Source of the DNA: Tubulanus polymorphus
Taxonomy: Eukaryota; Animalia; Nemertea
Reading direction: 5' to 3'
Length of the DNA: 64,000 nt
NCBI RefSeq assembly: GCF_964204645.1
Contig: NC_134027.1
Location: 22,778,560 to 22,842,559, forward strand
The position numbers were made by a program, and so were the translations under genes. This document shows positions 22,301 to 60,400 of the stretch, piece after piece. The notes beneath the pieces are model-generated. The model made no database searches, was not told the origin of the DNA, and saw only the letters and a program-made list of their open reading frames with translations. How positions within the stretch are numbered: position 1 is the stretch's first letter; each line of letters starts with the position of its first letter.

Positions 22301-25300
22301 GACGATGACAACGACGATCAGTAAAACCGCACCCACAATACCTCCAACCAACCCACCAGTCGACAGTCGACCATTTGTATGGGCACCTGAAGCTGGAAAC
22401 AAGAAAATATATACGCAAGAAATTATTCGGACTGTTAATGACAAAACAGATATCATTAGCGTGTTATGAAGCATCAATCAAGGAACAAAATGCGTGCGTA
22501 TTTGGTAGCTTGTGAATACTGATAGAAATAAACATCATTAGCAATAAAAAGGAAGCCATTTACACTGTTTAGCGGTTAGAAGTTTTGAACAAATAATACT
22601 AAATCTAAGAAAAACTAATATCTTTCGTAAAATGTGAAAAACACGACTTTTCGAGACTAGTCGAACCGTTGGCTGTTATGAAAAACTTCGTCTTAAAAAT
22701 TATGAATTTGTTGATGTAGTGAGTTTGATAAGAATGACCACACTCAAAACGTGGATAACAGATAATGAGATAAAAAGCTACTATACACACCTGACGATGA
22801 TCTCTACAGTGAGTTCTTAAACGTCGTATCATCTTAATTTGAATGTATTCTTAATTCTTAAACTTTGAAATATTGCTAGTTTTTATCTCATTATAGTGGA
22901 TTCGTATTATAAAAGCCATTCACCACATCCTATTGTATATACAACTTTTCAAATACCCTTTGAAATTTGTATGTATGAAAACAAAGTTTTAACGAAGATA
23001 TCATTTCTTGTATATCTGTATAACATACCAGTACATCATGCAAATGATAATTGGTTCATATGTTAAGCCGGGGTACGGTTTATGCCAGCCATTCATCTGG
23101 AACTTTCAAACGCTCTAGCTGCCCTTATTCTTTGAATAAATCCCACGCCTACAGACAGGGCACCCGGTTTCAGAGCATTAACCTCGGAAAGAACCCCAAA
23201 TTAGCCGCAATACAACGTGAAAGAAGCTAAAGTTGGATACCCCAAATTCTGAAACTGTTCTGCTTTAAGTGAAAACGCACCCAGATGAAATAGTTGGCCT
23301 ACCTTTATCTTTTGAATTAATCTGACCCATGGTCGGATCTTGAGTCGCGAAAATATCTAAAAATATTTCAATTGGACCCGAGACTGAGGCACTAGACGGA
23401 GCCGAATCGAAACGTTTTTGAATAAATAGGTTGCATCTGTATGTCCCTTAACTTACCAGCTTTTTTAAGTTGCAGTGCTATTTCTGCGCTTCCAATTGAA
23501 TTATTGAGTTGACACGAATAATTCCCGTAATCAGACGCCTGAACTGATTGTATAGTGACACTATGAGCTGTACCATCAGTTGTATTCGTATCGAATCTTT
23601 TCGATGTTGTTGTTCCATTAGTTTCATTCTTAACACAACTAAGAGTTATCCCACCTGATGGATTCGCGTCGAAGTTTATCGTAAATTTTGCAGTTTCTCC
23701 AATTCTCACTCTTACGGTTTCGACTTGCCCGGTGATAGTTGGTGCATCTGTTGCAATCGAAGAAAAAAAACAACAATTGTAGAAAATCTGAAGGTAAATT
23801 ATCATTTCATACTGTATCGGTAATAAATGTTGATAAATGATACATTTGTGTCTGGGATGTATTTGAAGCCACACAATTCCAGCCCGATACACGTACGTAT
23901 TTTGCAAATTCAAATTTAAGTTATTCATTCATGTACAGAAAATGTTTTTTTTAACAGAGTAAATAAGGGTTGAAACTGATTTTACCCCAGTTTATTCAAA
24001 TAATGATATGGTGAGTTATGATAGTCTTTTTTATATAGCGCAGCGCTTAAAGATCGTTTTCCATGGCTCCATCTTTTACTCACAGTTCGAAAGAAAACCT
24101 GTCCCCTGTAGATATTAACTTTTGGCTGTTAAAGGACGGTTTAATAGTTGGACCGAAACGATATTTGAAACTGGATCCAAATTATACATGTGTGTTTTGT
24201 GTACTAGGCTTTTACGTCATTTACTTCTTATACTTACATTGAACATTGATAGTAATATTACCAGCAACTGATCCAAATGTATTTGATACTGTACATATAT
24301 AAACACCTGAATCAGTTTTACTGATTCGTGTAAAACTGAGTTTATTATTAGACCGTCCTGATAGATTGACACCACTCCATTTATACGTCAGTCCTGTAGC
24401 TCCAGACTGTGAACCGTCACATGTGATTGTTAATTGTGAATTCTCCTGTACTGTGACGATGTTGTTGTTGGCGGTGTTTGGTTGAGATGTTAGAACTGCT
24501 CCACTCGGGGGTGCTGTAAATAGCATAGCAATGGCTTTTTATAATTTTTTTACATAAGTTTATTTCTTTACTAAAAAGTACAATACATAAATGCAGTCAT
24601 CACTAATACATGGAGGAAAAGTTAAAGAAGAAACTTCTGCATTGTTAAATTGTAGCAAAGAAAATGGACAAAAGGGGGTATACTATTGACAAAAAGCCTA
24701 ATGCCCTGGTGGAAGGAAAATTGGACGCGAAATTTGAATCAAGAGATGGTAGAGAGAAACTGGTATAATAGCTATTGGTTCATTCCTAGTATATACTGTT
24801 TCAAATTCCGCTTAAATATGTATACGTTAGATGCTGGCTGAAGTTCTGTTGGAAGAGCATTCCGAACTCTAATACAATTAACGTTAGGAGAAATTAACCT
24901 GATATTCGTTCTTTACTGACATTAGAGAAAATGATTAGAATGTCGGGTTTTATGGGTATGTAGGTCAGAACTACGAAAACCACCAGGCTATAAGTCGGTC
25001 CGAGGAATCTTAAGATAAATCATTTGCTTCGATTTCTTCGAAAAACCCCAGGGCAAATGCTAGGTTCACACCTACTACCGTCATCACTCTTTAGTGTTAG
25101 AATGAGAATTTGACTTAGAATTGCCCTGATTCAAACTACTCATCTTATCTTATGAAAAGTTGTATCTCGTCATGTTCAATCAAAGTTGTATGCAGAAGTC
25201 ATAATTTCTAAAGAAATGATTCTCTAGTTAAACTTAGCTTTTTCGTTATTATCTATTAATTCTCACCTACTACAGTAATTGCTGTTCTACTATGCTGGAA

Positions 25301-57400: not shown

Positions 57401-60400
57401 CAAACTTCCAAAACACGTTTTCCCGGGTCCCCTGGGTGCATCTTTATATCAGGAAATTTCACAATTTCACCGTTTCCTACTTTGTTGAAAATCAATTTAT
57501 TAAGTAACCATGGAAATAAGGGCACCTAGGTTTTTGAAAAATGGTTATTAAAGATATATATTCTCTAGGATTTGTCAAAATAAACAAAATAACCCAGGTG
57601 TTGCTTTAACCAGCTACCTAGGTTCACAACAGATCATTTTGTCCAACGTGTTTCATTCGATTCCAAAACTGCACGTACGGGTATACGATTGCAAATGTGA
57701 AAGTCAGACATTATGTGGCACATGTATGAGAACCACAGTCTCAATGCTGCGTCGCATTGACGTCGCAAATTTGCATGGCTACTTACGTGAAGTGGGCTAA
57801 TACAGACCTTGTATGATCAAAACTGACTTAGAATTCGTGCCAAATCTCAAAATAACTATCAAACACACGAGATCAATTTTGACAGAAAGTAAACGAATGT
57901 TATGTTCCTCAATATATACTAATATATTCCAAAGTTCCAATCTTTCCAACACAATCGACTAAGCCTAATATATTCAAATTCAATTTGAAACACCTTCCAG
58001 CTCGTGTCACGATCAGTAATAAAGATCGAACATCGAACGTTCTCAAAAAAGCAAACCCGATCCAACGGTTTGCAAACGTCAAGTTTGACACAACCGTGGC
58101 TGCTTCCATTTGCGTGGAGCTGCTGCTGAAAATTCAAAAATGTAAATCGGGTACCGGTATTTAACTGAAGACCGAGCGCTCGCCATTACACCATGGTATT
58201 TCTGATGGTTAACTTTTGAGCAACTGGCTCCAGAATCACCTGCCAACGGCCATATTTCATTGATGCAATATACTGTGAAACGATATAATATAGACGGGAG
58301 ATCAATGAAACTTAAATGCCTGACACTAAGACTTATTTCGACTTTTTTGACTATCTTAGATGATTGGGAGAGGGGTCCAAAAATAAGGACATTTTCCGTA
58401 GATTTAGGCTGTGAGTAGGGTGCCCCTCGGTGTTGAAACAAATACATCCAAAACAATTTAATTTGCAAGAGGATGAATGTTAGATTTGTAAGTTTTATGC
58501 GATCACTGTCTTGACAAAGATGGTAATCTTAATGGGAAGGAGCAGGGGTCCGGACTACCGACCCTCCAAACCCGTAGTCTGTCCCTGTGTTACTAGAAAT
58601 ATATCTCTATTTACCATTTTTTTTCAAATAACTAGGTGCCCTTGTTTCCATAGTTACTGAAAATTTTGATTTTAACAATGTAGGACCGGTTAAATTGGCA
58701 AATTTCTTGATATAAATATGCACACATGATACTCTAGAAAACGTGTTTTGGAAGTTTGACTCGCAATTACTTAAAAACTAATAAAGATAATTAAAAACGG
58801 TAAAATGTATATAAGACCACATATAGATGGCTATTGATCCTGAAAATTTCAAAAATGTAGATTAATATTTGTAAGAATTACGGACTTTTGAATGAGATGA
58901 GCAATAATTCGAGTTGAATTATCGGGAAGACGATATCAATGTTTATAACTTCACCAGCGCACATTGTTGCATTAACTTTATAAATGAGTGATATCATAAA
59001 AAAGTTTATTATCAGCCGAGTTCATCGATATTTCTACTTTGTTTCTATCTTAATCAAATCCAGAGATATGAACGAAATAAAAAAATTAAACCGGAGAAAA
59101 ATAGGGACAAAAAATTCAACAATGCGGACCCGGCGGGTACCCAAAAAAATGGCGCCTGGAAACTGTAAAAAGGCTTAATAAGCTTCCAAGAGAGTCGCTC
59201 GAATTCAATAGCGACGATGTGTCTATTGTATAAAAACGTGCAAATCTGAGAATATTTAGAGTGGGGTGATGTTAGGACACTGTAATCTAATATTTCGTGT
59301 AAGTGTTTGACGTAATTTGGATATGTCTCGTCCACTCATCTGACGCACATTTTTTCACGATATACCCTACATAATTTGTTTACCAACCCCCCTCCCCCAG
59401 AAAAAAACAACTTATATACGTAATATTTGAATGCTCCCTAAAGGGAAATCGGATGAAGACTGACTGGTAAAAAGACTGGACATTTGGATGAAATATGTCT
59501 GAGGTGTTTGAAGGGCATTATACATCTCTTAGCGTCCAGTGACATGGATGTGTTTATCAAAAATTGGTTAAGTTGGTTTTTTCTTTATCAAAAACGATTA
59601 CACGCACTTTTGATACATAGATTCCTTCGAATTGATTATTTGAAACCAATTGTTGTTTCAAACTGTGTAACATGAAGAGTAAAATGACACATGTTCATAG
59701 ATATAGATACTTACAAAGAACATTGATAGTAATATTACCAGTAACTGATCCTGCTGTATTCGATACTGTACATGTATAAACACCTGAATCAGTTTTACTG
59801 ATTCGTGTAAAACTGAGTTTATTATTAGACTGTCCTGATAGATTGACACCACTCCATTTATACGTCAGTCCTGTAGCTCCAGACTGTGAACCGTCACATG
59901 TGATTGTTAACGGTGAATTCTCCTGTACTATGACGATGTTGTTGTTGGCGGTGTTTGGTTGAGATGTTAGAACTGGTCCACTCGGGGGCGCTGTAAATAT
60001 GAAAACCATGCAGAAATATTAAAAATTTGATGGTACTTTTTTATGTGTTTTCTAGATTCGCTTTAACTTTGGCAAGTATTCAAACATATCATCAACGGAT
60101 GTCACATTTTGTAAAACAATGTGCGACAATGACGTAAATGGATTAGGAGTATTGCACGCTTTACCAACTCGTCGGAAACTTTTTTTCAACTTAAAATAGA
60201 GATTAGCAATTTTATTTATTTGATTGTTGAATTTTGTTCGATTTTCAAGATGGAAACATCCAAGATTTCCATATTTTTGACATCGTCGAAATCAATGATT
60301 AGAATGTATCAGATCAAGTGTTGAATACAATTTCACAATCTATTATCCATCTCATCTACTACAGTTATTACTGTTTCACTATTTGGGAACAAGCTCATGT

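What the first reader, a model, noticed from the sequence alone, without database searches (positions are those of the whole stretch)
24238..59990. Domain-2 exons of A and C are ~95% identical while flanking introns are unalignable, and changes are mostly non-synonymous
Seen by manual comparison of 24238-24513 with 59715-59990: about 14 nucleotide differences in 276 bp, giving 8 amino-acid-changing codons and only 2 purely synonymous ones. Similarity stops within ~10 bp of each splice site, and the signal-peptide exons of A and C are unrelated. Inference: exon-limited gene conversion between otherwise old paralogues, possibly with diversifying selection.
Basis: partly seen in the sequence, partly recalled or inferred. 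Interest (0 to 1): 0.7.

Follow-up and report, generated by a model that had tools for sequence, protein, structure and literature searches.

The report
Exon-swapping ribbon-worm Ig receptor family
Two neighbouring ribbon-worm genes for Ig-type cell-surface receptors share one 95%-identical exon between unalignable introns, likely because gene conversion keeps copying that exon among roughly twenty family members, a known process; the excess of amino-acid changes is what chance gives and shows no selection.

Summary
In detail: 14 differences in 276 nt, 8 amino-acid codons changed, 2 purely silent; identity ends 9 and 8 nt into the introns; the junction tested is bridged by an exact contig. The window is Tubulanus polymorphus. 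Conversion is supported: dS is 0.046 in domain 2 against 0.27 (V), 0.46 (I) and 1.0 (tail), with unalignable flanks, whereas B-C flanks still align at dS 0.12-0.38. Diversifying selection is not: dN/dS 1.08 on 13 codon-scored changes, 74% of sites are non-synonymous, and 10 of 14 differing letters are common variants among paralogue reads. The A-C pair is not special: about 20-24 copies of this exon exist, each ending at the splice sites, and C sits nearest the family majority. The larger find is a mosaic family of about 19 Ig receptors with two tail types (long with an ITIM motif; short with ITSM/YxN/YEE motifs); the three closest V-domain pairs each join a long and a short tail, as in vertebrate paired receptors, but no ITAM or charged transmembrane residue was found. 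Mechanism known (Xenopus ceacam); family not found in print. Function untested.

The parts
24238..24513 (-). Gene A domain-2 Ig exon (276 nt, phase 1-1), the homogenised exon
   Evidence: (Ig_2/Ig_3/I-set); spliced joins 24513-25267 and 23747-24238 in run X2
59715..59990 (-). Gene C domain-2 Ig exon, nearest to the family majority
   Evidence: (4 of 91 residues differ from majority)
25267..25611 (-). Gene A V-like Ig exon (83% nt to C)
   Evidence: (V-set E 3e-5, below the curated cut-off)
61428..61775 (-). Gene C V-like Ig exon; 93.9% aa to the V of short-tailed paralogue P0008
26630..26694 (-). Gene A signal-peptide exon (approximate bounds)
23457..23747 (-). Gene A I-set exon (68% nt to C; groups with P0005/P0006)
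23303..23356 (-). Gene A short stalk exon
   Evidence: joins in X2
19366..22392 (-). Gene A transmembrane and cytoplasmic exons (long tyrosine tail); gene A equals RefSeq LOC141902292
62020..62074 (-). Gene C signal-peptide exon, of the P0004/P0015/P0016 type; start-codon exon not located
53177..56459 (-). Gene C further ectodomain exons: Ig 56184-56459, Ig 55732-56064, I-set 54733-55005, FN3 54012-54317, FN3-like 53177-53455
51469..53051 (-). Gene C transmembrane and three cytoplasmic exons, ITIM-pattern STYSEL; 12 exons read as one 901-codon frame
31571..40446 (-). Gene B, a third paralogue lacking signal/V/domain-2 exons in the window, with an in-frame stop and a truncated exon: probable pseudogene; used as the intron-decay control

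Best explanation
The two exons are 95% identical inside unrelated introns, likely because recurrent DNA-level ectopic recombination (mostly gene conversion) copies patches of this exon among the roughly 20-24 copies in an old, Tubulanus-specific Ig receptor family. Shown: the exon-bounded identity, the low dS relative to every other A-C exon, the multi-copy depth step at both splice sites, and discordant per-domain relationships. Inferred: the introns diverged long ago and no longer pair, so tracts can only start and end within the exon plus its splice signals; repeated short tracts from many donors pull copies such as C towards the family majority and shuffle existing variants between copies, which gives pN about equal to pS without selection. 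Inferred with less support: the same process swaps V exons and whole ectodomains between long-tailed (ITIM-pattern) and short-tailed (ITSM/YxN/YEE-pattern) genes, as in paired immune receptors.
For: dS A-C: domain 2 0.046, V 0.27, I 0.46, last tail exon 1.0; pS Fisher p=0.0009 and 1e-5. Control: 4 of the 10 flanks of B-C or B-B exon pairs still align (z 5.6-12.6) at dS 0.12-0.38, while both domain-2 flanks do not; A's introns are still covered by reads of another individual at 80% likeness or more. Read depth of X5 steps from 0-5 in C's introns to about 200-230 inside the exon, and loose ends pile up 7-16 nt outside it, 5 of the 6 listed X5 piles with consensus agreement 0.49-0.72, i.e. many different introns; ratio about 24. 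10 of 14 A/C differences are letters shared with 22-97% of those reads; 3 are A-private; A and C share two minority letters (15%, 17%). Splice-adjacent identity of 9 and 8 nt exceeds 0 of 112 and 0 of 97 non-homologous exon pairs. Mosaicism: C's V groups with P0008 (100/97), A's I with P0005/6 (100/100); V rejects P0015+P0034 (AU p=0.0002) although these two are 100% identical over nine 50-residue windows downstream. Precedent: PMC5112662 passages.
Against: No nucleotide sequence of the other paralogues and no second species were available, so no GENECONV/PHI test or orthologue-versus-paralogue test was run. The domain-2 protein tree is a star and rejects neither A+C (p=0.59) nor C+P0008 (p=0.61). 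V and domain-2 distances are correlated over 78 gene pairs (Spearman 0.59), so the two exons are partly co-inherited. Family-wide, domain 2 (mean 80% aa) is no more uniform than the P, T, E and FN3 modules (80-84%). GC3 of domain 2 is 0.25-0.27, at the low end of 15 exons (0.25-0.39), so no GC-biased conversion signature. One of five B-C type pairs (P exon, dS 0.20) also has both flanks unalignable, so introns here decay fast. dS 0.046 rests on about 3 silent changes.
Confidence: 0.72

Rival explanations
1. Successive unequal crossovers inside exons built chimeric genes: A and C inherited domain 2 from a recent common copy and each flank was then replaced by crossovers with other paralogues. 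Same recombination machinery, reciprocal rather than patch-copying outcome.
For: Long single-breakpoint chimeras exist in the family: P0016/P0017 86-100% over the ectodomain with unrelated tails; P0015/P0034 identical downstream, 64-92% upstream. Module number and order vary between genes; B lacks its 5' exons.
Against: Needs at least two crossovers landing near both exon ends for this pair and for most of about 24 copies; letter-level sharing of variants across copies fits short patches better.
Confidence: 0.13
2. No exchange: domain 2 simply evolves slowly (constraint on protein and on the nucleotide sequence, e.g. splice elements), C has the shortest branch, and introns decay fast.
For: C differs from the majority at only 4 of 91 residues and appears in 7 of the 12 closest domain-2 pairs; star tree; P-exon flanks unalignable at dS 0.20.
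Against: Protein-level constraint predicts pN much below pS; found pN=pS with pS 5- to 12-fold lower than in the other A-C exons. Does not explain discordant V, I and tail relationships.
Confidence: 0.07
3. RNA- or cDNA-templated conversion: a reverse-transcribed spliced transcript (LINE machinery is abundant nearby) overwrites exons only.
For: Intrinsically exon-limited; gene A is expressed and spliced; RT fragments lie in the window.
Against: Identity includes 9 and 8 intronic nt; it does not run into the 3' end of V; exon-terminal positions 2, 274, 275 differ; the V-domain 2 and domain 2-I joins have no support in DNA raw reads X5 (about 12% of the run read) or in X1 contigs.
Confidence: 0.04
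4. Assembly or polishing artefact that pulled the exons towards a consensus.
For: C is suspiciously close to the family majority; short contigs cannot bridge the middle of the exon.
Against: X1 contig with 0 differences spans the downstream intron and 64 exon nt including a C-private and an A/C-minority letter; 116 of 527 raw reads of an independent individual are 95% or more alike to C's region.
Confidence: 0.02
5. One reading: conversion followed by diversifying selection on domain 2.
For: 8 of 10 changed codons alter the amino acid; dN/dS point estimate 1.08.
Against: Neutral expectation 74% non-synonymous, p=0.72; Fisher p=1.0; most differences are old shared variants; domain 2 has 6 of 91 highly variable columns against 19 of 114 in V.
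Confidence: 0.05

Closest known systems
Xenopus ceacam putative paired receptors (PMC5112662; passages read)
   Same: Conversion described as exactly restricted to the exon plus splice consensus sequences, low silent divergence, unconserved flanking introns; Ig receptor cluster with ITIM and other tails.
   Different: There the converted exon is the ligand-binding N (V) exon and partners carry ITAM-like motifs and face each other; here the pair in question shares domain 2, A and C are same-strand and both long-tailed, homogenisation is family-wide, and no ITAM was found.
Siglec-11/Siglec-16 (PMC5701461; abstract and outline read)
   Same: Repeated conversion between receptors with different signalling ends; relaxed constraint reported on converted exons, matching dN/dS near 1.
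   Different: Two genes, tested ligand binding and opposite signalling; here about 19 genes, no ligand known, no arginine after the F-strand cysteine (motif recalled), no charged transmembrane residue.
Teleost clustered protocadherins (PMC1852091; passages read)
   Same: Regional conversion homogenises membrane-proximal ectodomains among many paralogues while N-terminal domains stay diverse.
   Different: Cadherin repeats within one large exon, >99% identity and raised GC3; here separate exons, mostly 86-95% nt and no raised GC3.
Hydractinia Alr family (PMC9546547; passages read)
   Same: Clustered invertebrate family of V + I-set + FN3-like single-pass proteins with tyrosine motifs, pseudogenes and duplications.
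   Different: Alr has ITAMs in many members and shown allorecognition; here no ITAM in 15 tails, much higher identity between paralogues, no functional data; homology to Alr not shown.
Nephrin/SYG-2-like adhesion proteins
   Same: RefSeq's automatic names; best solved-structure match of P0010 is SYG-2, E 4e-18; V + C2-set/I-set + FN3 + TM layout.
   Different: Expanded to about 19 modular genes with variable module number; orthology not tested; strong V+domain-2 matches only in this species.

Membership tests
Exon-limited gene conversion (Xenopus ceacam type) | High exon identity with low silent divergence relative to other exons | tested here: met
Exon-limited gene conversion (Xenopus ceacam type) | Similarity ends at the splice consensus; introns unalignable | tested here: met
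Exon-limited gene conversion (Xenopus ceacam type) | Paralogues closer than orthologues of a sister species / significant tract test on nucleotide alignment | not testable with these tools
   no genome held; only proteins of paralogues; no close relative
Paired receptors (CEACAM1/3, Siglec-11/16) | Near-identical ligand-binding ectodomain on genes with different tails | tested here: met
   top 3 of 66 V pairs (93.9, 93.1, 86.8%) each join a long and a short tail; 36 of 66 pairs are mixed, so chance about 0.16; that V binds the ligand is assumed
Paired receptors (CEACAM1/3, Siglec-11/16) | Inhibitory member with ITIM | tested here: met
   pattern [ILVS]xYxx[IVL] in 6 of 6 long tails and in C, 0 of 9 short tails; motif only
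Paired receptors (CEACAM1/3, Siglec-11/16) | Activating member with ITAM or charged transmembrane residue | tested here: not met
   ITAM 0 of 15 tails; no charged residue in the 15 best 21-residue hydrophobic windows; short tails carry TxYxxV (5 of 9) and YE[ED] motifs (9 of 9) instead
Paired receptors (CEACAM1/3, Siglec-11/16) | Opposite signalling, shared ligand, co-expression | not testable with these tools
   needs experiments
Hydractinia Alr family | V + I-set + FN3-like single-pass architecture in a cluster | tested here: met
Hydractinia Alr family | Sequence homology to Alr proteins | tested here: inconclusive
   one search lists unnamed hits; 10 were looked up by name, none Alr; no direct comparison made
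Hydractinia Alr family | Allele-specific homophilic binding controlling fusion/rejection | not testable with these tools
   needs experiments
Siglecs | Essential arginine on the V-domain F strand (recalled) | tested here: not met
   no conserved Arg after the F-strand Cys in 12 V domains
Nephrin/SYG-2 orthologues | Orthology by phylogeny | not tested
   only similarity and automatic names

The most novel reading that the evidence does not exclude
A ribbon worm has evolved its own paired-receptor immune or self-recognition system: about 19 modular Ig receptors in which ITIM-bearing long-tailed genes and ITAM-less short-tailed genes trade V domains and whole ectodomains by recombination, with the near-invariant domain-2 exon acting as the shared landing site for exchange. 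This would be a paired-receptor system outside vertebrates with a non-ITAM second signalling arm.
Probability: 0.3. Interest if true: 0.72.

Novelty: new member of a known kind. Interest (0 to 1): 0.45.

Why it matters
The mechanism is known, and the selection claim falls away. What remains worthwhile is the family: nemertean recognition molecules are almost unstudied (searches found no description of it), and this cluster shows the genomic signatures that mark vertebrate paired receptors and cnidarian allorecognition genes: modular Ig ectodomains, exon-level exchange, pseudogenes and two tyrosine-motif tail classes. If the pairing is functional it would show convergent evolution of inhibitory/decoy receptor pairs in Spiralia and give concrete candidates for self/non-self or microbe recognition. 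It is also a clean natural case for measuring how conversion tracts are confined once introns have diverged.

Tried and rejected
No whole genome was held, so paralogue DNA could not be fetched. No RNA holder was listed by the run search; X2 nevertheless carries spliced joins for A; expression of C was not shown (no listed exact piece). Run X7 laid nothing, which is no proof of absence. AlphaFold model of P0002 was low confidence (mean pLDDT 42.7) and was not searched or used. PDB sequence search with V gave only two weak V-set matches (E 0.005, 0.008). ESM Atlas returned generic Ig receptors (CD22-, ALCAM-, HEPACAM-like): no family assignment. Longest-identical-run permutation was not significant within domain 2 (p=0.12) and nominally significant in V (p=0.008) and I (p=0.02), which framework constraint can also give. 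GC3 test negative. The last AU test (P0015+P0010 in the I alignment) failed to run. Three look-ups of earlier findings returned nothing. Recent whole-gene duplication of A and C was rejected (dS 0.27-1.0 elsewhere; AU tests). A notebook remark that C's transmembrane-exon donor is non-canonical was wrong and is corrected. Trees left out P0029 (isoform duplicate) and the truncated V rows of P0011 and P0020; AU tests used 12 genes with the quick LG+G4 model.
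Full report
Observation. The two stretches are minus-strand, 276-nt, phase 1-1 exons bounded by AG and GT, differing at 14 positions with no gap. Eight codons change the amino acid and two are purely silent, as reported. Both encode an Ig domain (Pfam Ig_2/Ig_3/I-set). Self-blastn aligns only 24230-24522 with 59707-59999. The flanking 150 nt score as shuffles do (z 0.1 and -0.2) and the whole introns share nothing better than a 14-nt word. The signal-peptide exons are unrelated (z -0.6). A contig of run X1 matches 59560-59778 with no difference, bridging C's downstream junction; the upstream junction has only 16 exon nt in its contig.

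What the genes are. Gene A's domain 2 is 100% identical to RefSeq LOC141902292 of the ribbon worm Tubulanus polymorphus; all 19 hits of 352 candidates are from that species, as are all 15 of 435 for the V exon. A is signal peptide-V-domain 2-I-TM-long tail and is spliced in run X2 (four GT..AG joins, none supported in X5 or X1). C reads as one 901-codon frame over 12 canonical exons; its expression was not shown. B lacks its 5' exons between 40460 and 51400, has an in-frame stop and a truncated exon, so it is probably a pseudogene. Counting by accession and name (my inference), 18 annotated genes plus C carry domain 2, most on a 27.8-Mb contig and two on a 16.5-Mb contig. They are built from about nine exon-sized modules in varying number and order. 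In a profile search of 1.84 billion representatives, the nine best hits are all family members; the next are generic long Ig proteins (10 hits named).

Is it conversion? Silent divergence between A and C is 0.046 in domain 2, 0.27 in V, 0.46 in I and 1.0 in the last tail exon; the pS contrasts have p=0.0009 and 1e-5. The V and I alignments reject an A+C clade (AU p=0.015, 0.0145), so A and C are not recent duplicates. As a control for intron decay, 4 of 10 flanks of B-C or B-B exon pairs still align (z 5.6-12.6) at dS 0.12-0.38, though one pair has lost both flanks at dS 0.20; reads of another individual still lie on A's introns. An exon at dS 0.05 with neither flank is therefore best read as exchanged after the introns diverged. 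The shared stretch includes 9 and 8 splice-adjacent intron bases, more than any of 112 and 97 non-homologous exon pairs, and does not continue into the end of V, which favours a DNA template over a spliced cDNA.

It is family-wide, not an A-C affair. Raw reads of X5 laid at 80% likeness give depth 0-5 in C's introns and about 200-230 inside the exon, with loose ends 7-16 nt beyond both splice sites whose mixed consensus (5 of 6 listed piles at 0.49-0.72 agreement) indicates many different introns. Against the median of 13 intron bins of A that I chose as non-repetitive, this is about 24-fold (rough, since X5 is a divergent individual). Of 527 reads, 116 are 95% or more alike to C. C's protein domain differs from the majority of 12 other genes at only 4 of 91 residues; A-C ranks 3rd of 78 pairs, tied with C-P0006 and behind C-P0003. 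Among the 40 variant rows shown (49 not shown), A's letter at 10 of the 14 differing sites is carried by 22-97% of reads, 3 sites are A-private, 1 is not listed, and A and C share two minority letters. Old variants reshuffled among copies is the pattern expected of patchwork conversion; only those two letters hint at direct A-C exchange.

Selection. pN 0.049 and pS 0.045 do not differ (Fisher p=1.0); 74% of sites are non-synonymous, so 10 of 14 is unremarkable (p=0.72). Variable columns concentrate in V (19 of 114 with four or more residues) rather than domain 2 (6 of 91). Diversifying selection on domain 2 is not supported. Relaxed constraint on converted exons is reported for Siglec-11/16 (abstract).

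Results against my reading. The domain-2 protein tree is a star and cannot choose between A+C and C+P0008; V and domain-2 distances correlate (Spearman 0.59); domain 2 is family-wide no more uniform than four other modules; GC3 is not raised; no nucleotide-level tract test and no second species were possible.

The wider mosaic. C's V is 93.9% identical to that of P0008 (100/97 support), its signal exon resembles P0004/15/16, and A's I domain groups with P0005/6. P0015 and P0034 are identical over nine consecutive 50-residue windows downstream but their V domains are rejected as sisters (p=0.0002); P0016 and P0017 share 86-100% of the ectodomain and have unrelated tails. Tails fall in two classes: long (6 of 6 scanned, and C, with an ITIM pattern as defined in PMC9546547) and short (0 of 9 ITIM; 5 of 9 TxYxxV; 9 of 9 YE[ED] motif); none of 15 has an ITAM or a charged transmembrane residue. 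The three closest of 66 V pairs each join a long and a short tail, but 36 of 66 pairs are mixed, so this alone has a chance of about 0.16. That YxN and YEEI-type motifs bind Grb2- and Src-type SH2 domains is recalled, not tested. It works like a paired-receptor cluster in its evolution; it cannot be filed as one, because the activating-member feature was not met and function is untested.

Comparison and novelty. PMC5112662 (passages) describes conversion exactly restricted to an exon plus splice consensus in Xenopus ceacam genes; PMC1852091 (passages) describes regional homogenisation among fugu protocadherins; PMC9546547 (passages) describes the Alr family; PMC3924837 (passages) gave general background only. 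Supplements were not read. Searches for this family in print: 'Tubulanus polymorphus'+'immunoglobulin' 0 papers; nemertean+genome+immunoglobulin+gene family expansion 4, Nemertea+immune+receptors+ITIM 1, Tubulanus polymorphus+genome 13 with 10 listed, none describing it judged from listings only; the library lacks most subscription papers. Verdict: real feature, known mechanism, new member; the selection claim is dropped; the receptor family is the lead worth following. Interest 0.45.

Noticed in passing
window 31571-40446 (-): Gene B has no signal/V/domain-2 exons upstream in the window, an in-frame stop near 38237 and a 5'-truncated Ig exon (38486-38704); probable pseudogene, its 5' part possibly displaced by LINE insertions.
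   Followed up: partly
window 60338-60430 and 55455-55494 (-): Decayed fragment of the V exon's 3' end in C's V-domain 2 intron, and a 40-nt remnant matching B's broken exon region in another C intron: traces of earlier exon duplication and loss.
   Followed up: no
window 52430-52748 (-): C lacks the middle cytoplasmic exons (the YAQV-type motifs present in A, B and P0004) yet stays in frame.
   Followed up: yes
window 59560-59664: Raw reads of individual X5 give no depth in C's downstream intron while X1 does; may be haplotype structural variation or an edge/sampling effect.
   Followed up: no
window 45584-46663 (+): Single-exon rhodopsin-family GPCR (7tm_1, E 5e-12) inside the Ig cluster between B and C.
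   Followed up: no
window 17302-18222, 40694-44559, 47222-49284: Several broken LINE reverse-transcriptase/endonuclease fragments.
   Followed up: no
window 56977-57564 / 58595-59182: 590-nt inverted repeat pair (89% identical) in C's intron after domain 2, like the ends of a DNA transposon.
   Followed up: no
window 22139-22237: Short very high-copy repeat (about 140-fold intron depth in X5) just downstream of A's transmembrane exon.
   Followed up: no
P0007 / P0028 and P0001: P0007 and P0028 are identical over about 950 residues and diverge only in the tail; P0001, P0007 carry two domain-2 copies.
   Followed up: partly
window 3245-5119 and 29225-30448: Minisatellite arrays with 51-, 70- and 76-nt units.
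   Followed up: no
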